Shown here in pieces: positions 14,688-40,202 of a DNA stretch of 44,662 nt. Where the stretch lies: sequence record OZ035802.1, one strand, 5' to 3'. Below the pieces are notes generated by a model, which had not been told where the DNA came from, did no database searches, and was given only the letters and a program-made list of their open reading frames with translations. The number at the start of each line of letters is the position of its first letter. Position 1 is the first letter of the stretch. This stretch comes from Vectrevirus T145P2. A program made the translations under genes and the position numbers.

Positions 14688-14703
14688 GTCTCACATGTGA
14701 GAC
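14688..14703. repeat. GTCTCACATGTGAGAC palindrome, copy 1
   Basis: perfect 16-bp palindrome immediately upstream of promoter. Confidence 0.7.
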
Positions 14704-14704
14704 T

Positions 14705-14728
14705 TATTTACCGGACACTATAGGATAG
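14705..14728 (+). promoter_or_regulatory. SP6-like phage promoter (variant)
   Basis: TATTTACCGGACACTATAGGATAG. Confidence 0.5.
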
Positions 14729-14878
14729 CCGTCGGAGACGGGAAAGAAAGGGAAGATAAAGGATATAAAGGAAGTAATAGGTATTAAAGGTTATATAGGT
14801 TATCTAGGAATACCTAGGAATACCTATTACCTTCTTCCTTCCTCTTATTACCACTTAGAGGAAGGGCAGACCTAGGTT

Positions 14879-14894
14879 GTCTCACATGTGAGAC
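14879..14894. repeat. GTCTCACATGTGAGAC palindrome, copy 2
   Basis: perfect 16-bp palindrome immediately upstream of promoter. Confidence 0.7.
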
Positions 14895-14897
14895 TTC

Positions 14898-14922
14898 GTA
14901 TTTACCGGACAGTATAGATAAG
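14898..14922 (+). promoter_or_regulatory. SP6-like phage promoter (degenerate variant)
   Basis: GTATTTACCGGACAGTATAGATAAG. Confidence 0.4.
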
Positions 14923-14948
14923 ACTAACTCACTTTGGAGATTTTAACC

Positions 14949-15077
14949 ATGCGTAACTTTGAGAAGATGACCCGTAAAGCTAACCGTTTTGACATGGAAG
15001 AAGGGCAGACGAAAGGCAAGAAGCTGAATAAACCTGTCCGTGACCGTGCATCTAAACGCGCTGCGTGGGAGTTCTAA
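14949..15077 (+). CDS. small basic protein, T7 gene 1.1-like
   Basis: 42 aa MRNFEKMTRKANR...; GGAGA RBS; position right after RNAP; resemblance to T7 gp1.1 is from memory. Confidence 0.45.
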   Translation: MRNFEKMTRKANRFDMEEGQTKGKKLNKPVRDRASKRAAWEF

Positions 15078-15080
15078 GTT

Positions 15081-17069
15081 ATGGCTATTATTCAGAATGT
15101 ACCGTGTCCTGCCTGTCAAAAGAATGGACATGATATTACTGGCAACCATCTTATGATATTTGAGGATGGCGCTGGTTACTGTAACCGTGGTCACTTCCAT
15201 GATAACGGCAAGCCTTATTACCATAAGCCAGAGGGTGGCATCGAGATAACCGAATTACCTATTACTGGCAATATCAAATATACACCTTCTCAGTTTAAAG
15301 AGATGGAGAAGGAAGGGAAGATTAGCGACCCTAAGCTACGCGCCATCGCACTTGGTGGTATGCGTATGAAAGACCGTTGGGAGGTCATGAATGAGCAAGA
15401 AAGGGCAGACCAAGAAGCAGAGTGGAAACTTGATGTTGAATGGTTCCTCACGCTTAAGCGTAAGAATCTTGTTTCCCGACACATTCGCGGCGACATTTGC
15501 GCATTGTATGATGTACGTGTCGGACACGATGAAGATGGTAGAGTCTCACGGCATTACTATCCACGCTTCGAGAAAGGTGAGCTAGTAGGCGCCAAGTGTC
15601 GCACATTACCTAAAGACTTTAAGTTTGGTCATTTAGGTAAACTCTTTGGTATGCAAGATCTTTTCGGTATGAATACTTTGTCTCACGTGTTAGACAAGGG
15701 AAGACGAAAGGATTGCTTGCTTATTGTGGGCGGCGAACTGGATGCACTAGCAGCACAGCAAATGCTCCTTGATTCTGCCAAGGGTACTAAGTGGGAAGGC
15801 CAGCCTTACCATGTATGGTCTGTCAATAAAGGTGAGTCTTGCCTTGAAGAGATAGTACAGAACCGTGAACACATCGCCCAATTTAAGAAGATTATATGGG
15901 GTTTTGATGGAGATGAGGTAGGGCAGAAGCAGAATCAGCAAGCGGCTCGCCTGTTTCCTGGCAAATCCTATATCCTTGAATACCCTTCTGGTTGCAAAGA
16001 TGCTAACAAGGCATTGATGGCTGGCAAGGCTAAAGAGTTTGTTGATGCTTGGTTTAATGCCAAGTCATCTGATGAAGTCTTTGGTAGCCAGATTAAATCT
16101 ATCGCATCTCAAAGGGATAAGCTCAAGGCTGCACGTCCAGAGCAAGGGCTATCATGGCCTTGGCCTAAGCTGAACAAGGTAACGCTAGGTATTCGTAAGA
16201 ACCAGCTTATCATTGTAGGTGCAGGCTCTGGTGTAGGTAAGACTGAGTTCCTCCGCGAAGTGGTTAAACATCTTATTGAAGAACACGGTGAATCTGTAGG
16301 CATCATTTCTACAGAAGACCCGATGGTCAAGGTGTCCCGTGCTTTTATCGGCAAGTGGATTGATAAGCGTATTGAGTTACCGCCAACCAACGACCCGAAA
16401 GAAGACGGATACCGTGAGGTGTTCGACTACACCGAGGAAGAAGCTAACGCTGCCATTGATTATGTGGCTGATACAGGAAAGCTATTTGTGGCTGACCTAG
16501 AAGGCGACTATTCTATGGAGAAGGTAGAGCAAACTTGCCTAGAGTTTGAGGCTATGGGCATTTCTAATATCATCATTGATAACTTAACGGGGATTAAATT
16601 AGATGAGCGTGCTTTTGGTGGGAAGGTTGGTGCACTTGATGAATGCGTCAAACGAATTGGTACTATCAAAGACCGACATGCGGTTACGATTTTCCTTGTC
16701 TCTCACCTTACACGTCCTCCGGCAAACCGTACCCAACACGAAGAAGGTGGCGAAGTTATCCTTTCTGACTTCCGAGGCTCAGGCGCTATCGGATTCTGGG
16801 CATCTTACGCCTTGGGGATTGAGCGTAATACAAGAGCTGAAACGCTTGATGAAAGGACTACCACGTACATCTCTTGTGTCAAAGACCGCGACCAAGGTAT
16901 CTACACAGGAACCAAAGTCATGCTCAAGGGTGACATTCAGACCGGACGTTTGAGAGAACCACAAGCTAGAACAAGGTCGTTTGATACAGGCGAAGCAAGG
17001 CAACAAGAAGTACCGGATTTACCGGACACTATAGAAGAGACAACCTTTGACGATGAACAGGGGTTTTAA
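15081..17069 (+). CDS. DNA primase-helicase
   Basis: 662 aa; N-terminal Cys-rich zinc ribbon; Walker A GAGSGVGKTEF; acidic C-terminal tail ending in Phe as in T7 gp4. Confidence 0.9.
   Translation: MAIIQNVPCPACQKNGHDITGNHLMIFEDGAGYCNRGHFHDNGKPYYHKPEGGIEITELPITGNIKYTPSQFKEMEKEGKISDPKLRAIALGGMRMKDRWEVMNEQERADQEAEWKLDVEWFLTLKRKNLVSRHIRGDICALYDVRVGHDEDGRVSRHYYPRFEKGELVGAKCRTLPKDFKFGHLGKLFGMQDLFGMNTLSHVLDKGRRKDCLLIVGGELDALAAQQMLLDSAKGTKWEGQPYHVWSVNKGESCLEEIVQNREHIAQFKKIIWGFDGDEVGQKQNQQAARLFPGKSYILEYPSGCKDANKALMAGKAKEFVDAWFNAKSSDEVFGSQIKSIASQRDKLKAARPEQGLSWPWPKLNKVTLGIRKNQLIIVGAGSGVGKTEFLREVVKHLIEEHGESVGIISTEDPMVKVSRAFIGKWIDKRIELPPTNDPKEDGYREVFDYTEEEANAAIDYVADTGKLFVADLEGDYSMEKVEQTCLEFEAMGISNIIIDNLTGIKLDERAFGGKVGALDECVKRIGTIKDRHAVTIFLVSHLTRPPANRTQHEEGGEVILSDFRGSGAIGFWASYALGIERNTRAETLDERTTTYISCVKDRDQGIYTGTKVMLKGDIQTGRLREPQARTRSFDTGEARQQEVPDLPDTIEETTFDDEQGF
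17005..17030 (+). promoter_or_regulatory. SP6-like phage promoter embedded in 3' end of primase-helicase gene
   Basis: GATTTACCGGACACTATAGAAGAGAC; encodes part of the helicase C-terminal tail. Confidence 0.6.
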
Positions 17070-17230
17070 TGGAAATTATTAAACCAGTATTGAATATCGG
17101 TATTGAGATCCTATTCATGCTTGTGATCGCAGATTATGCTGCACGATATGGATTCAAGAAAGCTGTGAAACTTATCGTTGCATCTGGTTTTATTATGTCA
17201 ATGTTCTTTATTGTAACACGCCTTATCTAG
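17069..17230 (+). CDS. hypothetical small membrane protein (53 aa)
   Basis: TAATG overlap with helicase stop; two hydrophobic segments. Confidence 0.35.
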   Translation: MEIIKPVLNIGIEILFMLVIADYAARYGFKKAVKLIVASGFIMSMFFIVTRLI

Positions 17231-17243
17231 TGTATTTATCAGG

Positions 17244-17267
17244 GCTTGTCTCACATGTGAGACAGGC
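17244..17267. repeat. extended GCTTGTCTCACATGTGAGACAGGC palindrome, copy 3
   Basis: 16-bp core with flanking complementarity. Confidence 0.7.
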
Positions 17268-17302
17268 TCTTATTAAGTACATTAAATAACTGGAGATTGA
17301 TT

Positions 17303-17986
17303 ATGTATAACTTAGTGTTGAATGTAGGTGACTTTGTACGCAACATCAAGAAAGATTCAAGTCGCTATCTTTGCCGTGGTGTTGTAACCTTTGTAGGTGA
17401 GAACCTGTATTATGTAGAATATCACAGTGGTGTTAAGCAGTATTACCACAAGAAGACAGCACATAAATATCTTGAAAAGATTGTAGAGATAAACAATCAA
17501 TGTAAGTGCATACATGATAAGGTTTGCGATAAATGTGCTCGCCAGATGCTTAAGAATTTCCTAGCTCCTCTTTATTATGGTGCTGGCCCTCAAACACTAG
17601 CAGAGTACATGGCAGAAAAGAAAACCACACTCAAGAAAGAGCGTCGCAATGTAATCACTGGTAAGACTCAAAGTGAGATGATTAAGCAATGTGGCACTGC
17701 ATTAGGTGTTACACAGTTTAATACTCGTGCATTGGGTAAATCCACAGGACAAGCTATGGTAAAGATTGGAGAAGCCATGATGCATCCAAATGTACCTGTG
17801 CGAATCATGGATGTTGACCATGCAATCACAGAACAAGGTAAGCAACGACGTGTAATTAATAAGCATTTTGCCGACACTATAGAAGGTATTATTCGTAAGC
17901 AAGGGTTGAAAGGTCTTCACATCTTAAATGGTGAAGAATTACTGTATCTACCTATCGTTACTGAAGAAACATACGTGAATATCTAA
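17303..17986 (+). CDS. hypothetical protein with Cys cluster
   Basis: 227 aa; CKCIHDKVCDKC cluster; function unknown. Confidence 0.55.
   Translation: MYNLVLNVGDFVRNIKKDSSRYLCRGVVTFVGENLYYVEYHSGVKQYYHKKTAHKYLEKIVEINNQCKCIHDKVCDKCARQMLKNFLAPLYYGAGPQTLAEYMAEKKTTLKKERRNVITGKTQSEMIKQCGTALGVTQFNTRALGKSTGQAMVKIGEAMMHPNVPVRIMDVDHAITEQGKQRRVINKHFADTIEGIIRKQGLKGLHILNGEELLYLPIVTEETYVNI
17867..17887 (+). promoter_or_regulatory. candidate weak phage promoter inside coding sequence
   Basis: TTTTGCCGACACTATAGAAGG keeps the GACACTATAGAAG core but diverges upstream. Confidence 0.3.
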
Positions 17987-17996
17987 GGGGTTAATC

Positions 17997-18212
17997 ATGA
18001 CTAAGGTATTAATTTATATGCGTGGACCTCATAAATGCTATGCAGTTGTAGCACCAGATGGTGTCAAGCCATATGGTACTTCAAAGGGGTTGGCATTAAT
18101 AGGTGCCAGTCGTAGTGTAAGTTTTCAGAGGGAACTTTTCGGTCATTGGACTGAAAAAGAGTTCCGTAAAGATTTTAAAGTTATTGGCTCTTTTATGGTG
18201 GAGACTAAGTAA
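17997..18212 (+). CDS. hypothetical protein (71 aa)
   Basis: ORF with GGGG RBS. Confidence 0.4.
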   Translation: MTKVLIYMRGPHKCYAVVAPDGVKPYGTSKGLALIGASRSVSFQRELFGHWTEKEFRKDFKVIGSFMVETK

Positions 18213-18466
18213 TGAAACAACGTGCAATCAAACGCTGCATCAAGCGTGCTCAGAAACAATTACGTCGTGGTACATTTAAAGGCCGTATGCGTATTGTAAG
18301 TTTTAATGCTAAAGGTATGGTCTTTGTTAGATCTTATCAAGAAGGTCGAACTATTTATGTAAACGATAAGGGTATTGGCTGGGGCGTAGGCGCTGCACTA
18401 GGTAATGGTGGTGGTCACGGTCATTGGGTAGGTAGCAAAGTAGAGGTGGCAATCTCTTATGTCTAA
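18212..18466 (+). CDS. hypothetical protein (84 aa), Gly-rich C-terminal part
   Basis: ATG overlaps upstream stop. Confidence 0.4.
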   Translation: MKQRAIKRCIKRAQKQLRRGTFKGRMRIVSFNAKGMVFVRSYQEGRTIYVNDKGIGWGVGAALGNGGGHGHWVGSKVEVAISYV

Positions 18467-18632
18467 ACACAGCCTTAAGATGTTCGATGGTCACGAAGAC
18501 CTGCAAGCACAAATTACTAACCAAGCCTTCCTGTTTGCACAGTTAACTATAGCTGAAGCAAAGAAGAACAGCCTGACGCGTGAGCAGGTTATCAAGGAAG
18601 GTGGAGTGAAACGTAAGATTCGCAGTCGATAA
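18459..18632 (+). CDS. hypothetical small ORF (57 aa)
   Basis: overlapping start; weak. Confidence 0.3.
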   Translation: MSKHSLKMFDGHEDLQAQITNQAFLFAQLTIAEAKKNSLTREQVIKEGGVKRKIRSR

Positions 18633-18642
18633 GTCGAGGGTT

Positions 18643-18658
18643 GTCTCACACGTGAGAC
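18643..18658. repeat. GTCTCACACGTGAGAC palindrome, copy 4
   Basis: one-base variant of the core; flanks also complementary. Confidence 0.65.
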
Positions 18659-18689
18659 AGCCTTTCATCATATTGATTGGAGGTGCATT

Positions 18690-18797
18690 ATGCCAAGTGA
18701 TTATGATTCTGATTGGAATTACTATGACTCAATGAATCCAAAACCAGAACGTTCAGATGATTACTACGAAACAGAGGCAATGTATGAAGACTATTAA
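18690..18797 (+). CDS. hypothetical tiny acidic ORF (35 aa)
   Basis: GGAGGTG RBS; D/Y-rich. Confidence 0.25.
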   Translation: MPSDYDSDWNYYDSMNPKPERSDDYYETEAMYEDY

Positions 18798-19002
18798 ATT
18801 AAGCAAGGTTTGCTCTTGCGGTAAAGGCTATCGCAGTCGTGTTGATGGTAAGTGTGAAAACTGCCGCACTAAAAGGCAGAAAGATCACAATAATAAATAC
18901 CACATGCACTTAATGTATCTTGATCTTAAAGCTACACCTGATTCTGTATTAGGTAAAAGTCTTAGAGTTAAATACTTTGGAGCAATCTATGAAATCAATT
19001 GA
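18787..19002 (+). CDS. hypothetical small Cys-rich zinc-ribbon-like protein
   Basis: MKTIKLSKVCSCGKGYRSRVDGKCENCR. Confidence 0.4.
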   Translation, partial: KTIKLSKVCSCGKGYRSRVDGKCENCRTKRQKDHNNKYHMHLMYLDLKATPDSVLGKSLRVKYFGAIYEIN

Positions 19003-21535
19003 TTGGAAGAAGGAAGCAGAAGGGCGTATCTTAGTAATGGATGCGGAAGCTAAAGGTCTGCTGGATGCTATCCGCTACGGTCATCGCGAAGATGTACACA
19101 TCATTTGCTGCATGGACTTGCTCACCACTGAGGAGTTCCTCTTCTTCGACCCATATGAGATGCGTGACCCTGAAGCAAGAGAACACCTGAAGGAATGGGA
19201 AGGTCATCAAGATGGTGACTTGGTTGATGGTGTTAACTTCCTGAAGCACTGTGAAGCTATTGTGTCGCAGAACTTCCTAGGGTACGACGGCCTTCTATTT
19301 GAGAAAGCATTCCCCGATATCTGGAAAGGCTTTAACTATACCGAGAGACGCGGCAAGGGCAGACTCCGCGCTGACCTGTGTCCGGTACGCGTCATGGATA
19401 CGCTGGTCATGAGTCGCCTGTTAAACCCCGATAGACGCCTCCCTCCGCAAGCATACGCCAAAGGCATGGGTAACGTAGCCCCTCACTCAATTGAGGCGCA
19501 CGGCATTCGTATAGGCCGTTATAAGCCGGAGAACGAGGATTGGTCTAAACTAACTGACCACATGGTACATCGTGTACGCGAGGACGTGGCGATTGGTCGT
19601 GACTTGTTCCTCTGGCTCTTTAACGGGGAATGGATGGAGCACAAACGCCGTGGCGTGAATAAACGCACTGGCCTAGGTATTGAGACAGCCTTCCACATGG
19701 AGTCCATTGTGGCGCTGGAGATGAGCCGTCAGGCCGAGCGTGGATTCCGTCTGGATATAGATAAAGCATTAGCACGATGCGAGGAATTGGACGCTAAGAT
19801 TGATGAGACAGTCGCAGCGTTCCGTCCGCACATGCCTATGCGTATCAAGTCTAAACCTTTTAAACCGGAAGAAAAGAATGAAGTATGCCAACGCGCAAAT
19901 GAGTATGGAGCTAGCAACAATATACCTACTGTCCTTGACCCCTCTCACTTTCTTCACGCAGAGAGACGAGGAGATCGCAAGACAGTATGGAGTGTCACTA
20001 CTAAGTCTGGTGATTGGTCGGCTAGCGTCAAGAAAGACTTTCCTCACCTTAGAGGAAACCGTAATGACACGCCAAGCATCAAGTGGATTGGCGCTTACTC
20101 GCCTGTTACTTTCGAAGAGATTCCCTTGGGTAACAGGGATACAGTTAAGCAAGTGCTCTATGATTATGGATGGAAAGGTGTTGAATTTAACGATACCGAG
20201 CAAGCGCATCTCGATGAGCACGGAGTGTTACCCAAACCTTGGAGTGGTAAGATAAATGAAAAGTCCCTTACTTTATGGCAAGAGAGAGCCGCACGTGAAG
20301 GTAAAACAGTCCCTGATTGGTGCTTGGGTATCGCTGCATGGTACATACTCGTATCCCGTCGTGGTCAGATCCTCAACCGTGGTGACGTTGAAGCCTTCGA
20401 CCAGAAGGGGGTGTGGCCTTCGCAAGCTGGTATACGAAAGTGTCGCGGCCTTGTACCTGTAGCATTTAACAAGGAGTTAGGAATCAATGCGCAGCAATAC
20501 TACGAAAGGTACGGATGCTGGCCTACGTCAGACAAGGATGACGGAGAATGGCGTGTGCCAGCTATTGCTATTAGTATTGGAACTTCTACGTTCCGTATGC
20601 GTCATCGTAACGTGGTTAATATTCCTGCCCGTGGTTTGTATCCTTTACGTGATTTATTCATAGCCGGTAAAGGTAAGCTAATCCTTGGTTGTGATGGTGC
20701 TGGTCTTGAACTACGTGTACTGTCTCACTTCATGAATGACCCTGAATATCAAGATATTGTACTGCATGGTGACATTCACACCCATAATCAAATGAAGGCT
20801 GGTCTTCCTAAGCGTGACATGGCGAAGACATTTATATATGCCTTCCTATATGGGTCTGGTATAGCTAACCTTGCAGCAGTATGTGGTGTTACTGAGGAAG
20901 AAATGGAGGAAGTTGTGGCAAGATTTGAGGTTGAACTACCATCTCTTGCACGCCTTCGTGAGAATGTTATCGCACAAGGTAACAAGTTTGGCTACCTACA
21001 AGCACCTGATGGTCATTGGGGTCGCATCCGTATGTCTGGTGGTGAACTTAAAGAGCACACTATGCTTAACGTACTACTCCAGATGACTGGTTCTCTGTGT
21101 ATGAAATACGCATTGGTCAGAGCGTTTGCAGTGATGCGCAAGGAAGGTGTGGCCTTAGATAGCATGGGAAACCCTTGCGGTATAGCTAACGTGCACGATG
21201 AAATCCAGATGGAAGTCCCTGAAGATGAGGTCTTGTATCTCAACTACGACTTGCCTTTCACCTTAGAAGGGTTCGAAACAGAGAAGGCTGCTGTGAAAGC
21301 AGTGTTCGATGCAGAGGAGAAACGTGTTCATGTGGATTCTGAAGGACGTATGTGGTCTGCTGCAAATCTCGTTAGTGTTGATGCTGATGCTGGTGTACTT
21401 CATTGCCAGCGTCGTTATCACCGTGCAGGGCATATCATTGCCGATGCAATGACTTGGGCTGGTCATTATTTGAAGATGCGTTGTCCGATGGCAGGTGAGT
21501 ATAAGATTGGTGCAAGCTGGAAGGAAACACACTGA
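18989..21535 (+). CDS. DNA polymerase, family A (T7 gp5-like)
   Basis: Motif A DGAGLELRVLSHF, motif B KTFIYAFLYGSG, motif C HDEIQMEV; N-terminal 3'-5' exonuclease region. Confidence 0.92.
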   Translation: MKSIDWKKEAEGRILVMDAEAKGLLDAIRYGHREDVHIICCMDLLTTEEFLFFDPYEMRDPEAREHLKEWEGHQDGDLVDGVNFLKHCEAIVSQNFLGYDGLLFEKAFPDIWKGFNYTERRGKGRLRADLCPVRVMDTLVMSRLLNPDRRLPPQAYAKGMGNVAPHSIEAHGIRIGRYKPENEDWSKLTDHMVHRVREDVAIGRDLFLWLFNGEWMEHKRRGVNKRTGLGIETAFHMESIVALEMSRQAERGFRLDIDKALARCEELDAKIDETVAAFRPHMPMRIKSKPFKPEEKNEVCQRANEYGASNNIPTVLDPSHFLHAERRGDRKTVWSVTTKSGDWSASVKKDFPHLRGNRNDTPSIKWIGAYSPVTFEEIPLGNRDTVKQVLYDYGWKGVEFNDTEQAHLDEHGVLPKPWSGKINEKSLTLWQERAAREGKTVPDWCLGIAAWYILVSRRGQILNRGDVEAFDQKGVWPSQAGIRKCRGLVPVAFNKELGINAQQYYERYGCWPTSDKDDGEWRVPAIAISIGTSTFRMRHRNVVNIPARGLYPLRDLFIAGKGKLILGCDGAGLELRVLSHFMNDPEYQDIVLHGDIHTHNQMKAGLPKRDMAKTFIYAFLYGSGIANLAAVCGVTEEEMEEVVARFEVELPSLARLRENVIAQGNKFGYLQAPDGHWGRIRMSGGELKEHTMLNVLLQMTGSLCMKYALVRAFAVMRKEGVALDSMGNPCGIANVHDEIQMEVPEDEVLYLNYDLPFTLEGFETEKAAVKAVFDAEEKRVHVDSEGRMWSAANLVSVDADAGVLHCQRRYHRAGHIIADAMTWAGHYLKMRCPMAGEYKIGASWKETH

Positions 21536-21749: not shown

Positions 21750-21817
21750 GTTATACTCAAGGTCACTTACGAGTGGCCTTTATGAATAACTTATTCCTAC
21801 TTATTTTGTCTAACATG

Positions 21818-22282: not shown

Positions 22283-22287
22283 GGGTT

Positions 22288-22664: not shown

Positions 22665-23471
22665 ATGGCACGTGGTGATTTTGATTTTGGTGCTCAGGTT
22701 ACTAAAGCTGAAGGTAAAGTATTTAAGAACCCTGAAGTTGGTGATCATGAAGCAGTAATCTCTGGCATCATTCATGTTGGTTCCTTCCAAGATATCTTTA
22801 AGAAAGGTAATACCACTGAAGTTAAGAAGCCAGCAAACTTTGTTCTTGTTAAGATTATCCTGATGGGTGACGACGATAAGAATGAAGATGATTCTCGCAT
22901 GGAACAATGGATGGCTGTGCCTCTGAAGTCTGGTGATAAGGCAACACTGACTAAGTTCCTGAATGCAGTTGACCCTAAAGAGTTGCTGGGTGGCTTCGAT
23001 GATTTTATCGGTGAATGTCTGACTGCAACTATGGTTGGTTCTGGCGACAAGAATGATGATGGTACTTTCAAGTATGTTAACTGGAAAGGCTTTGGCGGTA
23101 TGCCTGATAAGTTGAAGAAGCTTGTACTGGCTCAGGTAGAAGAGGAAGGTCTGTCTATGACAGGTCATATCACCTTCGACAAGCTGACCAAAGAAATCCT
23201 TGATGACATCCCAGCTAACTTGGTACGTCAATACTTCCTGAACGAGACACCTCGTGGTAAGAACCTGTCTGTTGCTGGCTCTCACGTAGAAGCTATTATC
23301 AAAGCTGCTCGTGAAGAAGACCCTGAATGGAAGAAGGCTAAGAAGAAAGACGAGGAAGATGCTACCCCAGCTAATCGTAAATCTCTGGATACTGGTGAGT
23401 CTGTTCCACAGGAAGTACCTGAAGCAGAAGATACTCCTGCACCGGAGATGGATGAGGACGCGGAATATTAA
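22665..23471 (+). CDS. hypothetical acidic protein, candidate ssDNA-binding protein
   Basis: 268 aa; codon usage looks highly-expressed-like; acidic C-terminal tail ending in Tyr (EMDEDAEY), reminiscent of T7 gp2.5 tail logic. SSB call is inference only. Confidence 0.5.
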   Translation: MARGDFDFGAQVTKAEGKVFKNPEVGDHEAVISGIIHVGSFQDIFKKGNTTEVKKPANFVLVKIILMGDDDKNEDDSRMEQWMAVPLKSGDKATLTKFLNAVDPKELLGGFDDFIGECLTATMVGSGDKNDDGTFKYVNWKGFGGMPDKLKKLVLAQVEEEGLSMTGHITFDKLTKEILDDIPANLVRQYFLNETPRGKNLSVAGSHVEAIIKAAREEDPEWKKAKKKDEEDATPANRKSLDTGESVPQEVPEAEDTPAPEMDEDAEY

Positions 23472-23700: not shown

Positions 23701-23716
23701 GTCTCACGTGTGAGAC
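23701..23716. repeat. GTCTCACGTGTGAGAC palindrome, copy 5
   Basis: variant core, directly after stop codon and upstream of promoter. Confidence 0.65.
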
Positions 23717-23730
23717 AAATCGGTGTCCGG

Positions 23731-23757
23731 TATTTACTGGACACTATAGAAGAGAAG
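23731..23757 (+). promoter_or_regulatory. SP6-like phage promoter
   Basis: TATTTACTGGACACTATAGAAGAGAAG. Confidence 0.65.
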
Positions 23758-31993: not shown

Positions 31994-31997
31994 TTCA

Positions 31998-32024
31998 GTA
32001 TTTACTGGACACTATAGAAGGGAG
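31998..32024 (+). promoter_or_regulatory. SP6-like phage promoter upstream of capsid gene
   Basis: GTATTTACTGGACACTATAGAAGGGAG. Confidence 0.7.
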
Positions 32025-33281: not shown

Positions 33282-33285
33282 TACC

Positions 33286-33322: not shown

Positions 33323-33335
33323 GTTAGGAGGATTC

Positions 33336-34073
33336 ATGCCTGTAATTAGACAAACCAGTAAAGTAGGACATATGATGGAAGATGTGGCCTTCCAGATTAT
33401 TGATAGTAAGCTGGAAGCGGTAAACTTGTGTATGCGAGCTATTGGTCGTGAGGGTGTGGATTCTCTCGACTCAGGTGACTTGGACGCAGAAGATGCAAGC
33501 AAGATGATCGACATCGTATCCCAGCGATTCCAGTACAACAAAGGAGGTGGCTGGTGGTTCAATCGTGAACCGAACTGGCAACTTGCACCAGACACTAACG
33601 GTGAAGTTAATTTACCTAACAACTGCCTAGCAGTATTGCAGTGTTATGCTTTAGGTGAAAAGAAAGTACCTATGACTATGCGAGCAGGTAAGCTCTACTC
33701 TACATGGAGTCATACCTTTGATATGCGTAAGCATGTGAATGATAATGGTATGATTCGTCTTACCTTACTTACCTTACTTCCATATGAGCATCTACCTACT
33801 AGTGTAATGCAGGCTATTGCCTATCAAGCTGCTGTAGAGTTTATTGTGTCTAAGGATGCAGATCAGACTAAGCTAGCCACTGCGCAGCAGATAGCCACTC
33901 AGCTTCTTATGGATGTACAATCTGAGCAAATGTCACAGAAGCGATTAAACATGCTGGTACATAACCCCACTCAGCGTCAGTTTGGTATCATGGCTGGTGG
34001 CTCTCAGAATGTACCTGCTTACTCTCATTCACCTTATGAGAGTTGGGCGCTCCGTCCGTGGGAGGATCGTTAA
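33336..34073 (+). CDS. tail tubular protein A
   Basis: ATG after TAGGAGGATTC; position after capsid as T7 gp11. Confidence 0.8.
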   Translation: MPVIRQTSKVGHMMEDVAFQIIDSKLEAVNLCMRAIGREGVDSLDSGDLDAEDASKMIDIVSQRFQYNKGGGWWFNREPNWQLAPDTNGEVNLPNNCLAVLQCYALGEKKVPMTMRAGKLYSTWSHTFDMRKHVNDNGMIRLTLLTLLPYEHLPTSVMQAIAYQAAVEFIVSKDADQTKLATAQQIATQLLMDVQSEQMSQKRLNMLVHNPTQRQFGIMAGGSQNVPAYSHSPYESWALRPWEDR

Positions 34074-36475
34074 TGGAAGTACAAGGTTCATTAGATAGAC
34101 AAATCCAAGGGATTAGCCAGCAGCCGCCAGCGGTACGCTTGGATGGTCAGTGCACAGCTATGGTTAATATGATACCTGATGTAGTGAATGGTACTCAATC
34201 ACGCATGGGTACAACTCATATTGCAAAGATACTTGATGCGGGGACTGATGACATGGCTACTCATCATTATCGCAGAGGTGATGGTGATGAAGAGTATTTC
34301 TTCACGTTGAAGAAAGGACAAGTTCCTGAGATATTTGATAAGTATGGGCGCAAATGTAATGTGACTTCACAAGATGCACCTATGACCTACCTCTCTGAGG
34401 TTGTTAATCCAAGGGAAGATGTGCAATTCATGACGATAGCTGATGTTACTTTCATGCTTAATCGTAGGAAAGTAGTTAAAGCTAGTAACAGGAAGTCACC
34501 TAAAGTTGGAAACAAAGCCATTGTGTTTTGTGCGTATGGTCAATATGGTACATCTTATTCCATTGTAATTAATGGGACCAACGCTGCTAGTTTTAAAACA
34601 CCGGATGGTGGAAGTGCAGACCATGTTGAACAAATTCGAACTGAACGTATCACTTCTGAATTGTACGCTAAGTTGCAGCAATGGAGCGGTGTGAGTGACT
34701 ATGAAATACAAAGAGACGGTACTAGTATATTTATCGAGAGACGGGATGGTGCTAGCTTTACAATAACAACCACCGATGGTGCAAAAGGTAAGGACTTAGT
34801 GGCTATCAAGAATAAAGTTAGCTCTACTGACCTACTCCCTTCTCGTGCGCCTGCTGGTTATAAAGTACAAGTGTGGCCTACTGGCAGCAAACCTGAGTCT
34901 CGTTACTGGCTGCAAGCTGAGCCTAAAGAGGGAAACCTTGTGTCTTGGAAAGAAACAATAGCTGCTGATGTATTACTTGGGTTTGATAAAGGCACAATGC
35001 CTTACATTATTGAACGTACAGGTATCATCGACGGCATAGCTCAATTCAAGATAAGACAAGGTGATTGGGAAGATCGTAAAGTAGGGGATGACTTGACTAA
35101 CCCTATGCCTTCTTTTATTGATGAGGAAGTACCCCAGACAATAGGTGGAATGTTCATGGTGCAGAACCGCCTATGCTTTACAGCAGGTGAAGCGGTTATT
35201 GCTTCTCGTACATCATACTTCTTCGATTTCTTTCGTTATACGGTTATCTCTGCATTGGCAACTGACCCATTTGATATTTTCTCAGATGCTAGTGAAGTCT
35301 ACCAGCTAAAACATGCAGTGACCTTAGATGGCGCTACCGTGTTGTTCTCTGATAAGTCACAATTCATACTGCCAGGCGATAAGCCTTTAGAGAAGTCAAA
35401 TGCACTGCTTAAGCCTGTTACAACATTTGAAGTGAACAATAAGGTGAAGCCAGTAGTAACTGGTGAATCGGTAATGTTTGCCACTAATGATGGTTCTTAC
35501 TCTGGTGTACGAGAGTTCTATACAGACTCTTATAGTGACACTAAGAAGGCACAAGCAATCACAAGTCATGTGAATAAGCTTATCGAAGGTAACATTATCA
35601 ACATGGCAGCAAGTACCAATGTCAACCGATTGCTTGTCACTACCGATAAATATCGTAACATAATTTACTGCTATGATTGGTTATGGCAAGGTACAGACCG
35701 TGTACAATCAGCATGGCATGTATGGGAGTGGCCTATGGGTACAAAGGTGCGAGGTATGTTTTATTCTGGTGAATTACTTTATCTACTCCTTGAGCGAGGC
35801 GATGGCGTCTATCTGGAGAAGATGGACATGGGTGATGCACTAACCTATGGTTTGAATGACCGCATCAGAATGGATAGGCAAGCAGAGTTGATCTTCAAGC
35901 ATTTTAAAGCAGAAGATGAATGGATATCTGAACCACTTCCTTGGACTCCTACTAACCCAGAACTTTTGGATTGCATCTTAATAGAAGGGTGGGATTCATA
36001 TATTGGAGGTTCTTTCCTGTTTAAATATAACCCTAGTGATAACACCTTGTCTACAACCTTTGACATGCATGATGATAACCACGTAAAAGCGAAGGTTATT
36101 GTTGGTCAGATTTACCCTCAAGAGTTTGAACCAACACCTGTAGTTATCAGAGATAGGCAAGACCGTGTATCCTATATTGATGTACCTGTTGTGGGGTTGG
36201 TTCACCTTAATCTTGATATGTATCCTGATTTCTCCGTGGAAGTTAAGAATGTGAAGAGTGGTAAAGTACGCAGGGTGCTAGCGTCAAACCGTATAGGTGG
36301 TGCTCTCAACAACACAGTAGGTTATGTTGAACCAAGGGAGGGTGTCTTCAGATTCCCACTGAGGGCTAAGAGCACGGATGCTGTTTATCGTATTATTGTA
36401 GAATCACCTCATACATTCCAGCTTCGCGATATTGAGTGGGAAGGGAGCTACAATCCAACCAAAAGGAGGGTCTAA
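34073..36475 (+). CDS. tail tubular protein B
   Basis: ~800 aa; TAATG overlap; size and position as T7 gp12. Confidence 0.85.
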   Translation: MEVQGSLDRQIQGISQQPPAVRLDGQCTAMVNMIPDVVNGTQSRMGTTHIAKILDAGTDDMATHHYRRGDGDEEYFFTLKKGQVPEIFDKYGRKCNVTSQDAPMTYLSEVVNPREDVQFMTIADVTFMLNRRKVVKASNRKSPKVGNKAIVFCAYGQYGTSYSIVINGTNAASFKTPDGGSADHVEQIRTERITSELYAKLQQWSGVSDYEIQRDGTSIFIERRDGASFTITTTDGAKGKDLVAIKNKVSSTDLLPSRAPAGYKVQVWPTGSKPESRYWLQAEPKEGNLVSWKETIAADVLLGFDKGTMPYIIERTGIIDGIAQFKIRQGDWEDRKVGDDLTNPMPSFIDEEVPQTIGGMFMVQNRLCFTAGEAVIASRTSYFFDFFRYTVISALATDPFDIFSDASEVYQLKHAVTLDGATVLFSDKSQFILPGDKPLEKSNALLKPVTTFEVNNKVKPVVTGESVMFATNDGSYSGVREFYTDSYSDTKKAQAITSHVNKLIEGNIINMAASTNVNRLLVTTDKYRNIIYCYDWLWQGTDRVQSAWHVWEWPMGTKVRGMFYSGELLYLLLERGDGVYLEKMDMGDALTYGLNDRIRMDRQAELIFKHFKAEDEWISEPLPWTPTNPELLDCILIEGWDSYIGGSFLFKYNPSDNTLSTTFDMHDDNHVKAKVIVGQIYPQEFEPTPVVIRDRQDRVSYIDVPVVGLVHLNLDMYPDFSVEVKNVKSGKVRRVLASNRIGGALNNTVGYVEPREGVFRFPLRAKSTDAVYRIIVESPHTFQLRDIEWEGSYNPTKRRV

Positions 36476-37221
36476 TGGCTATAGGTTCAGCCGTTATGGC
36501 TGGTATGTCTTCTATTGGTAGTATGTTTGCAGGTAGCGGTGCAGCAGCCGCTGCTGGTGGTACTGCCGCAGCAGCAGGAGGGACAGCCGCCGCAGGTGGC
36601 GGAGGTTTGCTTGGCTCCCTTGGTAGTTTCTTAGGAGGTTCTTCTGCTGGCTTCTCTAATGCAGGACTGCTTAGTGCAGGTATGCAAGGTCTTGGTCTTC
36701 TAGGCAATCTTTTTGGTGGAAGTGATGAAGCCAAAGCTATGAAGAAAGCTCAGGAGGAGCAATGGCGGCAGCAGTTAATTGCTACACAAGAAGCATATAA
36801 GACAGTGGCAGATGCAGAACGCTCTGCTGCTAAACAGTATCATGCGGATGCAATAAGCAATCAGGCTTCACTACTGCAGCAGAGAGCACAGGTTGCATTG
36901 CTTGCTGGTGCTACTGGTACTGGTGGTAACTCTGTGTCTTCTATGCTGAATGACTTAGCAGCAGAAGGCGGAAGGAACCAGAGTACAATTATCGATAACT
37001 ATGAGAATCAGAAGATTAACTTCACAAACCAGCTTAAGTCCATCCAACGTGGTGGTCAGATGCAGATGCGTGAGTTTAAGAAACCTTCTGCCGTGAGCAC
37101 CTTGGTGCAAGGTATACCGAGTCTGGCATCTGCCTATGTAACAGGTAGTAAGTCCGGCATGGCTTTAGGTAAAGCTTTAACTGATTCTCGTACATATTCA
37201 TCTGGAACAAGAGGTATTTAA
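36475..37221 (+). CDS. internal virion protein (gp14-like)
   Basis: Gly/Ala-rich hydrophobic N-terminal region; TAATG overlap. Confidence 0.6.
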   Translation: MAIGSAVMAGMSSIGSMFAGSGAAAAAGGTAAAAGGTAAAGGGGLLGSLGSFLGGSSAGFSNAGLLSAGMQGLGLLGNLFGGSDEAKAMKKAQEEQWRQQLIATQEAYKTVADAERSAAKQYHADAISNQASLLQQRAQVALLAGATGTGGNSVSSMLNDLAAEGGRNQSTIIDNYENQKINFTNQLKSIQRGGQMQMREFKKPSAVSTLVQGIPSLASAYVTGSKSGMALGKALTDSRTYSSGTRGI

Positions 37222-40169
37222 TGGCAATTGAGCGACAAGCAGTACAAGGTCTGCCACAAGTGCAGGCCACTTCTCCTAATGTCATGACCTTTGCACCTCA
37301 GCGAGTTGGAGGTGTGGAGGCTGGCGTAGCTTCTACCTCCGGTAGTCGATTTATCGAAGACCTTATTCGAGCAGCCAGTAGTGTAGCTGATGTAACCACT
37401 GGTATCCTTAATCAAAAGATTGAGGAAGATAAGGTTGTTCAAATGGAACGGGCATATAACGGATTAATGCCTTCTGAGGATGCAACTCGTGGTGGCGCTC
37501 GTGCTAACATGCTTGTCAAAGCTCAACTGCTAGCTAATGATGAAGCAGCACGAATGAAAGACATGGCTACTCGTTTCCAAGGAACGGATGACGAGTGGAC
37601 ACAGCTTATGGTTGACTCTCGTAATGAGATGCAGAATAAGCTGTTCCAGCAATACCCTGAGTTGCAAGGTGACAAAGATACTATGCGTATGGTCACTAAT
37701 GTCTTCCAAGAACAGCAGCCTCAGATTTGGGCTACACGAACCCAGCATAAACTTGACCGTGAACAAGCAGACCGTGAGGATACCTTTGACGGGCGAGTGG
37801 CTTCTACTTGGGATTCTAATATTGACCCTGAAGCCTCTGGATATGCTTTACAGGAACGAATCCGCGAAGGTCTTACTCAAGGATTACTACCTGAACAGAT
37901 GCACAAGAAGTTAGTCCAGCGAGCAATTTCACTTGCACAAGGCGGTGATGTTAGCATGGCTGAAGCCCTGAAGTATGTGAAGGACGATAAGGGTGTTTCT
38001 GTTTATGCTAAGAATCCACAGCTTATCACAGCCATCACTAGTGGTAATGCAGTTTGGGCTAGGAATAATGTAGCTGATGTAACTCGTATGTCTTTCGAAG
38101 TTAAAGAATCATACCTTGCAGGCGATTTAACTGATGAAGAATTGTTGGAACGAGCACAGCACATTAATAATCTGACAGGTAACTCTGTCTTCTCTAACCC
38201 AGAACTAGAGGCACTGATGCGCCAACGAGCTAAGCAGAATGCAGGGCTAGGTGCAATGCAGGATATGCGCCGTGAGCTTTACTCCGACCGCCTGACTGGC
38301 TTCCAAGGTAAGACTGATAAAGAGAAGAAGGCTTACATTGATGTTATCAAACAAGATAGCCAACTTTATGCAGACCAGCAAATCAAACAACGTGGCTTGG
38401 ACCCTTACAGTCAAGAGGCTGAAGCTATTCGTGGTGCAGTGGAAGTGCAGCGCCTACAATTCATGAACTCCAAAGGCTTAGTGGATGATACCTTTGAGTC
38501 TCGTATCAAAGCCATGGAATCTATGCTATCGCCTGAGCACTTTGCCAAGGGCGAACCACAAGAGTTGATGACTATTCGCCAGTTGTGGGAACAGTTGCCA
38601 GAAGAGAGCCGAGGTGTCTTTGGTGACACGGTGAATGGCTACATGGATAACTACAACACTGCACTACAAATGGGAGAGACACCTTTGCAGGCTGCAAGGT
38701 TTGCGCGTGAAGCACAGCAGAAATTCTCTCGTACTGAGAAGGAAACCAAGAAGTTCAACTCAGCTATTGGAGAGGCACTGGATGAGGTGTCTGGTGCTGG
38801 CTGGTTTGATGGTAAAACCGAAGTGTCAGACTTAGGTAAAGCTATTGCGGAAGAAGAGTTACGAGCTAAGGCCAATATGTTGTGGTCTAGTGGTATGCGT
38901 AACATGGATTCCATCAAGAAGGCTTTAATTACTTGGGGCAATAAACGCTACACTCAATCAGAGGATGCAAAGACTTCCGGTGGCTATTTCATTAAAGGTG
39001 ATTACACTTCTGCATCTGATATGCTTATGTCAGTTGGGAAAGGCGTAAACCCTACCGATGTACCTCTGGCGCTTGGTAGGTATGTAGAAACACAGATGCC
39101 AGAATTGAAGAAGGAGCTTCAAGAGTGGGAAACTAAAGATGATATATACATTGATTACAATGAACAGAAAGGAACTTTTGTGATTCGTGCTGGTGCAGCA
39201 GGTCGCCCTCTTTCTGGAGTAATCCCTGTAACCTCTTTAGATACTACTTCACTACTAGATTCTGCCTATCAGAAGAAAGTAGAGGAACGAGATAAAGGCG
39301 AGTATGTTCACCCGTATCGTACAGATATTGGTGCACAAGAGCCTATGCCAGCTAAACCAACTGCCAAAGATATTGGTAAATTTGGACTAGCTAACTTCCT
39401 CATGTCTTCTGCTTTTGCTTCTGGTGAGAATCTGCCTTCTAACTTCGAGATTAACTATCGAGGTAATATGCAACAATTCTATGACAAGCTAGCTATGGAT
39501 GAGAATAAAGATAAAGTTGGCTTTAATAAGGCAACTGGAACCTTTACTCCATATAAAGACGCTCACGGTGAGTCTATCGGTTACGGTCATTTCTTAACGG
39601 AAGAAGAGAAGCGAAACGGGTATATTAAGATTGGCGATGAACTAGTTCCCTATCGAGGGTCTATGTCTCAGCTTACAGAGAGCAAGGCTCGCGCCCTTAT
39701 GGAGCAAGATGCTAAGAAGCATGTGCCTCCTACTCGTGACTGGAAGATTCCGTTTGACCAGATGCATCCTGCACAGCAACGTGGCTTGATGGATTTAACC
39801 TACAATTTAGGTAAAGGTGGAATCCAGAACTCACCGCGTGCTCTTGCTGCATTCAAAGCTGGTAAGCTTACGGAGGGTTTTATCGAAATGCTGGGCACTG
39901 CATCAAGTGAAGGTAAGCGTATTCCTGGCCTACTGAAGCGACGCGCTGAGGCATACAATATGGCATCTGCTGGTGGTGTGCCTAAGATTACCGAAGTGGA
40001 GACTCGTGAAGATGGCTCCATGTGGGTTAGGTTTGGTGGACCTATGCCAGCAGGTTCTGTCTCGGCATGGACTCATAAACGTATTGGCGCGGATGGTTGG
40101 TATCAGGTTTATGAGGCTGCACCTACAAAGTTAGCTAAAGGTTCTAAGGTAGGTAAAGTTAAGTTGTAG
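37221..40169 (+). CDS. internal virion protein with C-terminal T4-lysozyme-like peptidoglycan hydrolase domain
   Basis: 982 aa; C-terminal region (~39520..39970) KDAHGESIGYGHFLTEEE...LMDLTYNLGKGG resembles a GH24 phage lysozyme. Confidence 0.75.
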   Translation: MAIERQAVQGLPQVQATSPNVMTFAPQRVGGVEAGVASTSGSRFIEDLIRAASSVADVTTGILNQKIEEDKVVQMERAYNGLMPSEDATRGGARANMLVKAQLLANDEAARMKDMATRFQGTDDEWTQLMVDSRNEMQNKLFQQYPELQGDKDTMRMVTNVFQEQQPQIWATRTQHKLDREQADREDTFDGRVASTWDSNIDPEASGYALQERIREGLTQGLLPEQMHKKLVQRAISLAQGGDVSMAEALKYVKDDKGVSVYAKNPQLITAITSGNAVWARNNVADVTRMSFEVKESYLAGDLTDEELLERAQHINNLTGNSVFSNPELEALMRQRAKQNAGLGAMQDMRRELYSDRLTGFQGKTDKEKKAYIDVIKQDSQLYADQQIKQRGLDPYSQEAEAIRGAVEVQRLQFMNSKGLVDDTFESRIKAMESMLSPEHFAKGEPQELMTIRQLWEQLPEESRGVFGDTVNGYMDNYNTALQMGETPLQAARFAREAQQKFSRTEKETKKFNSAIGEALDEVSGAGWFDGKTEVSDLGKAIAEEELRAKANMLWSSGMRNMDSIKKALITWGNKRYTQSEDAKTSGGYFIKGDYTSASDMLMSVGKGVNPTDVPLALGRYVETQMPELKKELQEWETKDDIYIDYNEQKGTFVIRAGAAGRPLSGVIPVTSLDTTSLLDSAYQKKVEERDKGEYVHPYRTDIGAQEPMPAKPTAKDIGKFGLANFLMSSAFASGENLPSNFEINYRGNMQQFYDKLAMDENKDKVGFNKATGTFTPYKDAHGESIGYGHFLTEEEKRNGYIKIGDELVPYRGSMSQLTESKARALMEQDAKKHVPPTRDWKIPFDQMHPAQQRGLMDLTYNLGKGGIQNSPRALAAFKAGKLTEGFIEMLGTASSEGKRIPGLLKRRAEAYNMASAGGVPKITEVETREDGSMWVRFGGPMPAGSVSAWTHKRIGADGWYQVYEAAPTKLAKGSKVGKVKL

Positions 40170-40186
40170 TACCTAACTCAAGGCTT

Positions 40187-40202
40187 GTCTCACATGTGAG
40201 AC
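40187..40202. repeat. GTCTCACATGTGAGAC palindrome, copy 6
   Basis: perfect core with extended flanking complementarity (GCTTGTCTCACATGTGAGACAGG). Confidence 0.7.

What the first reader, a model, noticed from the sequence alone, without database searches (positions are those of the whole stretch)
14688..40202. Family of GTCTCACATGTGAGAC palindromes at gene boundaries
Six near-identical 16-bp palindromes occur at 14688, 14879, 17248, 18643, 23701 and 40187, with a degenerate copy at 8885 and one inside the primase gene at ~15677. All six are intergenic, three directly abut a phage promoter (14688, 14879, 23701), and four have extra flanking complementarity. This is far beyond chance. Candidate roles are RNA processing or stabilising hairpins, phage RNAP pause sites, or operators for a dimeric protein.
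Basis: seen in the sequence. Interest (0 to 1): 0.6.

Follow-up and report, generated by a model that had tools for sequence, protein, structure and literature searches.

The report
Binding sites for phage ParB-like protein
The repeated 16-bp palindrome is real, and it is most likely the DNA docking site of an uncharacterised early phage protein with a ParB/KorB-type DNA-binding domain; site and protein change together across two subfamilies of T7-like lytic phages, which exposes an undescribed and directly testable control layer.

Summary
GTCTCACATGTGAGAC occurs 8 times with up to 3 mismatches, against 0.21 expected. The window is a circularly permuted K1E-like (Vectrevirus) genome.

The same half-site, GTCTCAC, is multi-copy in phages whose core proteins are only 40-55% identical, including Colwellvirinae, where the centre is 3 nt. 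SP6, PP1, Klebsiella and Proteus phages carry GTC[C/T]AAC..GTTGGAC at homologous positions.

In 40 distinct sequences, residue 66 of the HTH helix is the only column that separates site types: Lys with GTCTCAC, Asn/His with GTCCAAC. Other helix variants go with GTTTCAC (the parS half-site), GTAACAC and GTCCCAC. Copies inside genes switch His/Asn codons to follow the genome's type.

Three sites (17248, 18643, 40187) also form a covarying 14-bp sense-strand RNA hairpin. What the bound protein does is inferred, not shown; a KorB-like boundary or repressor role is my best guess.

The parts
11038..11922 (+). Gene for the gp6-like early protein (294 aa; ORF call starts at GTG 11029), the proposed trans factor. 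It has an N-terminal ParB/KorB-type HTH domain (residues about 10-122, HTH helices 46-57 and 61-74, Lys66), an acidic linker, a coiled coil and a conserved C-terminal domain.
8885..8900 (.). Left-end copy GTCTCACATGTTAGAC (mixed half-sites), 24 nt upstream of the -35 hexamer of a sigma70-like early promoter.
   Evidence: Homologous left-end copies in K1E, K1-5, SP6, Era103, PP1 and Pm5460.
14688..14703 (.). Perfect copy, 38 nt after the terminator that follows the RNAP gene and 2 nt upstream of phage promoter 14706-14728.
14879..14894 (.). Perfect copy, 5 nt upstream of phage promoter 14900-14922, ahead of the gene 1.1 homolog.
15680..15695 (.). Copy inside the primase/helicase gene, GTCTCACGTGTTAGAC, coding for SHVLD.
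   Evidence: In type-B genomes the same codons read SNVLD with GTC[C/T]AACGTGTTGGAC.
17241..17270 (+). Palindrome 17248-17263 at the tip of a 14-bp sense-strand hairpin, upstream of gp10.
   Evidence: -23.6 kcal/mol, z -7.0.
18636..18665 (+). Palindrome 18643-18658 (centre AC) at the tip of a 14-bp sense-strand hairpin, upstream of the small gene before the DNA polymerase gene.
   Evidence: -19.4 kcal/mol, z -4.9. The flank covaries with SP6 9383.
23701..23716 (.). Copy (centre GT) starting 2 nt after a stop codon, 15 nt upstream of promoter 23732-23754.
40180..40209 (+). Palindrome 40187-40202 at the tip of a 14-bp sense-strand hairpin, upstream of the gp36 internal virion protein gene.
   Evidence: -21.1 kcal/mol, z -5.0.
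21808..21817 (.). Orphan half-site GTCTAACATG abutting promoter 21818. Possibly a decayed copy.
   Evidence: Not followed up.
13401..13416 (.). Decayed relic of the in-gene site in the RNAP gene (CGCTAACGTGCTGGAT, aa TANVLD). The site is intact in Era103, PP1, VEN, Achelous and Vc1.

Best explanation
The palindromes are double-stranded DNA binding sites, parS/operator-like, for the phage's own early protein gp6 (window 11038-11922). gp6 would bind as a dimer through a ParB/KorB-type helix-turn-helix domain, one half-site GTCTCACR per monomer. gp6 is encoded just upstream of the RNAP gene, so it is made early by host RNAP. It would then occupy about 8 sites at the boundaries of expression units: next to the early host-type promoters at the left end, just after terminators, just upstream of phage promoters or ribosome-binding sites, and inside the primase gene. 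My best guess for what this achieves is a KorB-like global control or insulation of transcription: shut-off of early promoters, road-blocking of read-through, or modulation of the adjacent phage promoters. Three sites (17248, 18643, 40187) are also embedded in a conserved 14-bp sense-strand RNA hairpin, a second layer probably concerned with mRNA processing or stability. Status of each step: the existence, conservation and co-variation of sites and protein are shown here. Binding itself is inferred. The physiological role is a hypothesis.
For: (1) The half-site sequence is conserved far beyond neutral decay. The exact GTCTCACRYGTGAGAC is multi-copy in IMG/VR contigs whose RNAP, capsid and portal proteins are 40-57% identical to the window's, at GC contents of 40-56%. 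It is the top de novo palindrome, with a 3-nt centre, in Vibrio phage VEN and Pseudomonas phage Achelous.
(2) All copies in a genome change together. SP6, PP1, K22PH164C1 and Pm5460 carry GTC[C/T]AAC..GTTGGAC at homologous positions. Copies inside the primase and RNAP genes switch His (CAC) to Asn (AAC) to follow the genome's type.
(4) gp6 is homologous to the protein encoded directly after a ParA/CbiA ATPase gene in two high-GC loci whose operons are flanked by the same palindrome. BLASTP gives E 3e-5 and 4e-4, hhalign gives E 1e-4. Context.
(5) Specificity co-varies. In 38 IMG/VR loci the motif KAQxY-X-LM has X = K/R with GTCTCAC (25 loci) and X = N/H with GTCCAAC or GTCTAAC (13 loci), with no exception. 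An unbiased scan of 40 distinct sequences finds residue 66 as the only column that separates the types perfectly; residue 69 of the same helix is among the three next-best columns, each with one overlap. The K-type Vectrevirus clade is nested inside the N-type clade, so the pattern is not plain phylogeny. Further variants: Y65S with GTTTCAC..GTGAAAC, KAHTYR with GTAACAC, and F65/R66 with GTCCCAC. Lys/Arg facing a C:G pair and Asn facing an A:T pair fits common protein-base contacts (general knowledge).
(6) Hairpin formation is not the common denominator. Promoter-adjacent copies fold at z about -1.2, the left-end copy at z +0.65, and left-end and in-gene copies have mixed half-sites.

Against: Some features fit a hairpin better than a rigid dimer on B-DNA. 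The centre is 2 nt in Molineuxvirinae but 3 nt in Proteus phages and Colwellvirinae. Pm5460 has both spacings in one genome. In SP6 the asymmetric copies are T4.G13 (a G.U pair on the sense strand) six times against one C4.A13. Positions 4:13 and 5:12 stay complementary at standard intergenic sites. A flexible coiled-coil dimer and C-to-T bias on the non-template strand could explain these points, but neither was tested.

The three long hairpins show true RNA-type covariation, so part of the family does work as RNA or single-stranded nucleic acid. In KorB, base contacts come largely from residues outside the HTH (my recollection), so calling residue 66 base-contacting is an inference. The proposed regulatory role has no direct support.
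Confidence: 0.7

Rival explanations
1. The family is primarily an RNA element. The sense transcript folds into a hairpin that serves as an RNase III-type processing site or as a 3'/5' stabiliser between cistrons, as at the T7 R sites. The sequence conservation would then reflect an RNA-binding factor or nuclease.
For: Three sites form 14-bp hairpins with 95% of cells paired. 7 of 14 pairs show double changes, 30 cells are G.U on the sense strand, and 0 of 500 shuffles reach the observed score. Energies are -19 to -24 kcal/mol with z -5 to -7. Variation at positions 4:13 and 5:12 keeps pairing. The centre tolerates 2 or 3 nt. Pm5460 annotators called the homologous hairpin a terminator.
Against: In the distant phages there is no flank pairing at all, only the 7-bp arms. 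The short copies fold no better than shuffles, and the left-end and in-gene copies have mismatched arms. A plain structural role does not need 14 invariant bases across phages with 40% protein identity. It also does not predict that one residue of a ParB-fold HTH tracks the stem sequence. Rfam finds nothing. A stem of 6-7 bp is too short for RNase III (general knowledge). As a second layer at the three long sites this reading is likely (about 0.6). As the explanation of the whole family it is not.
Confidence: 0.15
2. The palindrome acts as a single-stranded DNA hairpin on the sense strand, for instance as a priming or loading signal for the phage primase-helicase. The sense strand is the lagging-strand template for rightward forks. 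Alternatively it acts as part of replication origins.
For: Sense-strand bias of wobble pairs. Each arm starts with GTC, the core of the T7 primase recognition site (general knowledge). Two copies flank the promoter pair downstream of the RNAP gene, which matches the layout of the T7 primary origin.
Against: The flanks 5' of GTC do not fit a conserved primase site in the distant phages. Nothing in this model predicts co-variation with gp6. The palindromic symmetry and the R-Y centre are not needed for a primase site.
Confidence: 0.05
3. The sites are recognised by a host factor or by the phage RNA polymerase itself as a pause or termination signal, not by gp6.
For: Sites often sit right after intrinsic-terminator-like hairpins and right before promoters (Era103 7022, Achelous 6445 and 26080, C256 8829 and 18570).
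Against: The site type switches between close relatives that infect similar hosts (K1E-like against SP6 and Klebsiella phages), and it does so along with a phage protein residue. Promoter specificity differs widely among these phages while the palindrome is constant. Dyad symmetry is not a feature of known T7-type pause signals (general knowledge).
Confidence: 0.05
4. The copies are a selfish or gene-converted dispersed repeat with no trans-acting reader. Their uniformity within a genome would come from copy-paste recombination.
For: Within-genome uniformity, and half-converted copies (8885 and 15680 in the window, 559 and 9570 in K1-5).
Against: The 14 bases are conserved across subfamilies with different flanks. 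Positions are conserved and copies are retained inside essential genes at the cost of amino-acid changes. The match to a protein residue is perfect.
Confidence: 0.03

Closest known systems
KorB and its 12 OB operators on plasmid RK2 (ParB family global repressor)
   Different: gp6 lacks the ParB N-terminal CTP-binding domain: no GERR box and no Pfam ParB hit. There is no ParA/IncC partner in the phage. The replicon is a strictly lytic phage. The site sequence differs. Dimerisation is probably through a coiled coil rather than the KorB C-terminal domain.
Chromosomal ParB-parS (TGTTNCACGTGAAACA) and Noc-NBS
   Different: 2 or 3 extra central base pairs separate the half-sites. There is no CTPase or clamp domain, no ParA, and no segregation task in a lytic phage.
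Dispersed SopB centromere repeats of the linear plasmid-prophage N15
   Different: N15 is a plasmid prophage with SopA and needs partition. The window phage is lytic and has no ParA.
ParA-partner proteins of the actinobacterial loci L081/L302 (Bailinhaonella thermotolerans scaffold27) and L084
   Same: Sequence homologs of gp6, with Arg at the position of Lys66. Their parA-'parB' operons are flanked by 3-5 copies of the identical GTCTCACNNGTGAGAC.
   Different: High-GC replicons with a ParA gene and clustered sites of the centromere kind. The C-terminal parts are unrelated.
T7 RNase III processing sites (R0.3 ... R18.5)
   Same: A family of similar intergenic hairpins next to promoters and ribosome-binding sites in a T7-supergroup genome. 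The three long hairpins (14 bp) could work this way.
   Different: T7 sites are longer irregular hairpins with an internal loop, lie downstream of promoters, and are not sequence-conserved across distant phages (my knowledge). Here most copies have only 7-bp arms and lie upstream of promoters.

Membership tests
ParB/KorB superfamily of DNA-binding proteins (for gp6) | Helical HTH DNA-binding domain of the ParB/KorB/SopB type | tested here: met
ParB/KorB superfamily of DNA-binding proteins (for gp6) | N-terminal ParB/Srx CTP-binding domain with a GERRxR box | tested here: not met
   No Pfam ParB-type hit. No GERR motif. The HTH domain starts at about residue 10.
ParB/KorB superfamily of DNA-binding proteins (for gp6) | Partner ParA-type ATPase in the same replicon | tested here: not met
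   tblastn with the L084 ParA gives a best E of 1.8. There is no KGGxGK[ST] motif in any frame of the window. Distant homologs in L081/L302 and L084 do have one.
ParB/KorB superfamily of DNA-binding proteins (for gp6) | Sequence-specific binding to a short palindrome present in several copies | tested here: inconclusive
   The copies and the co-variation of helix residues 65/66 with half-site positions 3-5 are shown. Binding itself cannot be tested with these tools.
Pfam DUF3102 | Score above the Pfam gathering cut-off | tested here: not met
   5 of 10 N-terminal domains hit DUF3102, but only weakly, with a best E of 0.035. This is a hint of remote kinship, not membership.
T7-type RNase III processing sites | Extended, roughly 20-bp or longer irregular RNA hairpin in an intergenic transcript | tested here: inconclusive
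   Three sites form 14-bp regular stems with a 4-nt loop. The other five copies have stems of at most 7 bp or none.
T7-type RNase III processing sites | Cleavage by host RNase III | not testable with these tools
   Needs end mapping in rnc+ and rnc- hosts.
Intrinsic (class I) terminators | G+C-rich hairpin followed directly by a U run | tested here: not met
   The sequences after the stems are CUUAUUAAG, UUUCAUCAU and CUUUAUGAU. The true terminator after the RNAP gene lies separately at about 14621-14649.
Rfam families | Match at the gathering score | tested here: not met
   0 matches in the whole window.

The most novel reading that the evidence does not exclude
Lytic SP6-like and Colwellvirinae phages have taken over the DNA-binding module of a plasmid/phage-plasmid partition protein, without ParA and without the CTPase domain. 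They would use it, together with about 8-11 parS-like sites per genome, as a genome-wide early regulator or organiser of their own chromosome: a KorB-like global circuit in a virulent phage. Its specificity has been re-coded at least five times, each time with re-writing of every site, including sites inside essential genes.
Probability: 0.5. Interest if true: 0.8.

Novelty: new variant of a known kind. Interest (0 to 1): 0.72.

Why it matters
SP6, K1E and K1-5 are classic phages. They are the source of SP6 RNA polymerase and are widely used as therapy candidates. Yet nothing is known about how they switch off early transcription or insulate their transcription units, and they lack T7's gp0.7 and gp2.

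A conserved early DNA-binding protein with a defined 16-17 bp site at unit boundaries would be the first candidate regulator. It would assign a function to a protein family (phrog_4571, 211 phage records, about 117 clusters at 50% identity) now labelled hypothetical.

The natural specificity series offers a compact system for studying how a DNA-binding protein and all its sites co-evolve. The series runs K66 with GTCTCAC, N66 with GTCCAAC, S65 with GTTTCAC, plus the variants that go with GTAACAC and GTCCCAC. It could also supply orthogonal protein-operator pairs for engineering.

Every step is cheap to test by EMSA, point swaps or ChIP.

Tried and rejected
- **Literature.** I searched for the sequence itself, for SP6/K1-5 with palindromes, for DUF3102, for ParB in Autographiviridae and for SP6 gp7. 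Nothing describes the element. The two genome papers most likely to mention it, Dobbins 2004 and Scholl 2004, are not held. I therefore cannot exclude that the repeat was noted there.
- **Rfam at gathering score.** Nothing.
- **Curated protein libraries for gp6.** Pfam, PHROGs, NCBIfam, PADLOC and PDB sequence searches gave no named family.
- **gp16-like protein as the factor.** Rejected: its acidic C-terminal tail ending ...DEDAEY points to a T7 gp2.5-type SSB.
- **gp10 as the factor.** It is only 38% identical to its SP6 counterpart, but it is absent from the distant phages.
- **IMG/VR scan for GTCCAACNNNGTTGGAC.** Only Pm5460 itself plus random singletons.
- **Genome-collection scan for tandem palindromes.** Mostly an unrelated 22-bp-period repeat in rumen Bacteroidaceae MAGs. 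Only the Bailinhaonella locus has a gp6-like gene.
- **Search for relatives of the L081 protein.** Only the protein itself.
Full report
**What the window is.** The 44,662-bp window is a circularly permuted genome of a K1E-like phage (Vectrevirus, Molineuxvirinae). It is 95-97% identical to K1E, PhiNW-E1 and relatives. All genes lie on the + strand. The RNA polymerase gene is at 11986-14613, and the physical left end maps near 7,900-8,250.

**The observation.** GTCTCACATGTGAGAC with up to 3 mismatches occurs 8 times, at 8885, 14688, 14879, 15680, 17248, 18643, 23701 and 40187. Shuffles give 0.21, with a maximum of 2.
- Six copies are intergenic.
- Three lie 2, 5 and 15 nt upstream of phage promoters at 14706, 14900 and 23732.
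- One lies inside the primase gene, at 15680.
- One lies at the left end, 24 nt upstream of a sigma70-like -35 hexamer.
- Only the two central bases vary. They are always purine then pyrimidine, so both strands read GTCTCACR.
- Three sites, not four, have extended flanking complementarity.

**How deep the conservation goes.** K1E, K1-5 and KAW1A4500 keep the sites in place. An exact-match scan of IMG/VR found the palindrome in many contigs. The multi-copy ones are SP6-like phages whose RNAP, primase, DNA polymerase, portal and capsid proteins are only 40-57% identical to the window's. Their GC content ranges from 40 to 56%. Erwinia phage Era103 has it as well.

In Vibrio phage VEN and Pseudomonas phage Achelous (Colwellvirinae), the most frequent palindrome found de novo is GTCTCAC-NNN-GTGAGAC, with 8-11 copies.

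The contexts recur everywhere:
- at the left end;
- directly after the terminator that follows the RNAP gene;
- abutting a phage promoter;
- 2-4 nt before a Shine-Dalgarno sequence;
- after the capsid-gene terminator;
- inside the RNAP or primase gene.

Neutral DNA is scrambled at this divergence, and the promoters of these phages differ. So the 14 fixed bases must be read by something sequence-specific.

**Concerted change of all copies.** SP6 has nine copies of GTC[C/T]AAC-RY-GTTGGAC. Pectobacterium phage PP1 and Klebsiella phage K22PH164C1 have GTCCAAC-RY-GTTGGAC. Proteus phage Pm5460 has GTCCAAC-NNN-GTTGGAC at five sites and a 2-nt centre at the left end. All are at positions homologous to the window's.

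The in-gene copies follow suit. The primase reads TLSHVLDKG in the window but T[ML]SNVLDKG in SP6, PP1 and K22. The RNAP reads RVSHVLD in Era103 and RVSNVLD in PP1. So the site type is kept even at the cost of an amino-acid change. The window's RNAP gene holds a decayed type-B relic. K1-5 still has one unconverted type-B site, and the window has two half-converted ones. This pattern points to a recent switch from type B to type A in Vectrevirus.

**The lead to a reader.** Two high-GC contigs from the IMG/VR scan (L081 and L084) carry 3-5 copies of the identical palindrome. The copies flank an operon made of a ParA/CbiA ATPase gene and a gene for a 320-334 aa protein, which is a classical parA-parB-parS layout. 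That second protein shares a motif with the window's gp6. gp6 is the 294-aa early protein encoded immediately upstream of the RNAP gene (phrog_4571, unknown function). BLASTP gives E 3e-5 (28% identity over 166 aa) and 4e-4 for the two single comparisons. hhalign of the two small profiles gives E 1e-4 over the HTH.

gp6 has no ParB N-terminal CTPase domain, and the phage has no ParA. The rest of the protein is an acidic linker, a predicted long helix (coiled coil) and a conserved C-terminal domain of unknown fold. Homologs of the N-terminal domain occur in 211 phage records, mainly Molineuxvirinae and Colwellvirinae. They make up about 117 clusters at 50% identity among 1.8 billion proteins.

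**The test: protein and site co-vary.** I fetched 41 IMG/VR loci that encode gp6 relatives, with 9-kb flanks.
- In 38 of them the helix motif KAQxY-X-LM could be read. X = K/R goes with GTCTCAC sites in 25 loci, and X = N/H goes with GTCCAAC or GTCTAAC in 13. There is no exception.
- A blind scan of every alignment column in 40 distinct sequences (24 type A, 16 type B) finds residue 66 as the only column that separates the types perfectly. Residues 45, 69 and 75 are next best, each with one overlap, and residue 69 lies in the same helix as 66.
- On a tree of the domain, the K-type Vectrevirus clade is nested inside the N-type clade. Era103, the distant contigs and Colwellvirinae are K-type.
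- Three further variants appear. Y65S goes with GTTTCAC..GTGAAAC, the canonical parS half-site, in Vibrio phage Vc1 and L301. KAHTYR goes with GTAACAC..GTGTTAC in L300. F65/R66 goes with GTCCCAC..GTGGGAC in L292.
- The actinobacterial ParA partners have Arg at this position and type-A sites.

That makes at least five independent joint switches. Lys/Arg opposite a C:G pair and Asn opposite an A:T pair is what common protein-DNA contacts would predict. That last point is inference.

**The RNA layer.** At three homologous sites (window 17248, 18643 and 40187) the palindrome sits at the tip of a longer stem. An alignment of 18 such sites from six genomes shows a 14-bp helix. 95% of cells are paired, 7 of 14 pairs have changes on both sides, 30 cells are G.U on the sense strand, and no shuffle out of 500 reaches the score. 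Predicted energies are -19 to -24 kcal/mol, with z -5 to -7. This is real structure on the sense strand. It most simply marks an mRNA processing or stability hairpin, which I could not test.

This structure is not the common denominator of the family. The promoter-adjacent copies fold no better than shuffles. The left-end copy does not fold. The distant phages have no flank pairing.

**Points that still favour a hairpin.**
- The centre can be 2 or 3 nt, and both occur in Pm5460.
- SP6's asymmetric copies are mostly U.G on the sense strand.
- Positions 4:13 and 5:12 remain complementary.

A flexible coiled-coil dimer and transcription-linked C-to-T bias may account for these points. I rate the issue as open and have kept the RNA reading as the main rival.

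**How it most likely works.** gp6 is made early from host-RNAP transcripts. It dimerises and occupies the palindromes. Given where they lie, I think a KorB-like global role is the most likely one. The sites sit beside the early promoters that drive gp6's own operon, just downstream of terminators, and just upstream of phage promoters and ribosome-binding sites. That role could be repression of early transcription, road-blocking of read-through at unit boundaries, or tuning of the neighbouring phage promoters. An architectural role, bridging or condensing phage DNA, is equally compatible with the data. The existence of the sites, their conservation and the co-variation are shown here. Binding is inferred. 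The physiological role is a hypothesis.

**Novelty.** None of the curated libraries names the protein, and no held paper describes the repeat or the pairing. The original SP6 and K1-5 genome papers could not be read and may have listed the repeat. The kind of system is known: a ParB/KorB-type protein with dispersed palindromic sites. Three things appear new:
- its presence in strictly lytic T7-supergroup phages;
- the absence of both ParA and the CTPase domain;
- the repeated re-coding of specificity.

Noticed in passing
window 8457-8886: CCTTAGT occurs 17 times in the window against 6.2 expected. Seven + strand copies are clustered near the genome's left end, and the last one overlaps the left-end palindrome. 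The palindrome is preceded by CCTTA in the window, K1-5, SP6 and Era103.
   Followed up: partly
window 23717-23754: Promoter 23732 is part of an inverted repeat with its own upstream spacer (GTGTCCGGT / ACTGGACAC). The homologous promoters in Pm5460 (GGTGGTCT/AGACCAC) and PP1 (CCGCCC/GGGCGG) keep the pairing with different sequences, so read-through RNA or melted DNA could sequester the promoter.
   Followed up: partly
window 14621-14949: The region after the RNAP gene reads: terminator (GGCCA..TGGCC + T5), palindrome, promoter, about 150 nt with purine-rich then pyrimidine-rich stretches, palindrome, promoter, then a homolog of T7 gene 1.1 (Pfam Phage_1_1, E 1e-15). This is the layout of the T7 primary replication origin.
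   Followed up: no
window 21808-21817: An orphan half-site, GTCTAACATG, abuts promoter 21818. It may be a decayed copy.
   Followed up: no
window 13401-13416: Decayed relic of the in-gene palindrome in the RNAP gene (CGCTAACGTGCTGGAT, aa TANVLD). It still carries the Asn codon of the type-B form, although the genome now uses type A.
   Followed up: yes
L081/L302 (Bailinhaonella thermotolerans scaffold27) and L084 (129-kb IMG/VR contig): Actinobacterial phage- or plasmid-like replicons have a ParA gene followed by a gp6 homolog. They are flanked by 3-5 copies of GTCTCACNNGTGAGAC, which are presumably their centromere.
   Followed up: yes
L234-L259 (rumen Bacteroidaceae MAGs): Arrays with a 22-bp period of GTCTCACNNGTGAGAC, with any two central bases, occur at many loci per genome. 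No gp6-like gene lies nearby. This is probably an unrelated dispersed repeat.
   Followed up: partly
window 22665-23471: The conserved 268-aa protein ends in an acidic tail, ...EMDEDAEY. That is typical of T7 gp2.5-type single-strand DNA-binding proteins, yet the protein is annotated hypothetical everywhere.
   Followed up: no
window 17297-17986: gp10 is only 38% identical to its SP6 counterpart, while the flanking primase and DNA polymerase are about 90% identical. This is a local mosaic segment right after a long-hairpin site.
   Followed up: no
window promoters 14706, 21818, 22586, 26918, 32000: Most phage promoters are followed within about 25 nt of the start by a short stable hairpin in the leader, for example GGGAGaaaagCTCTCCC at 32000.
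   Followed up: no
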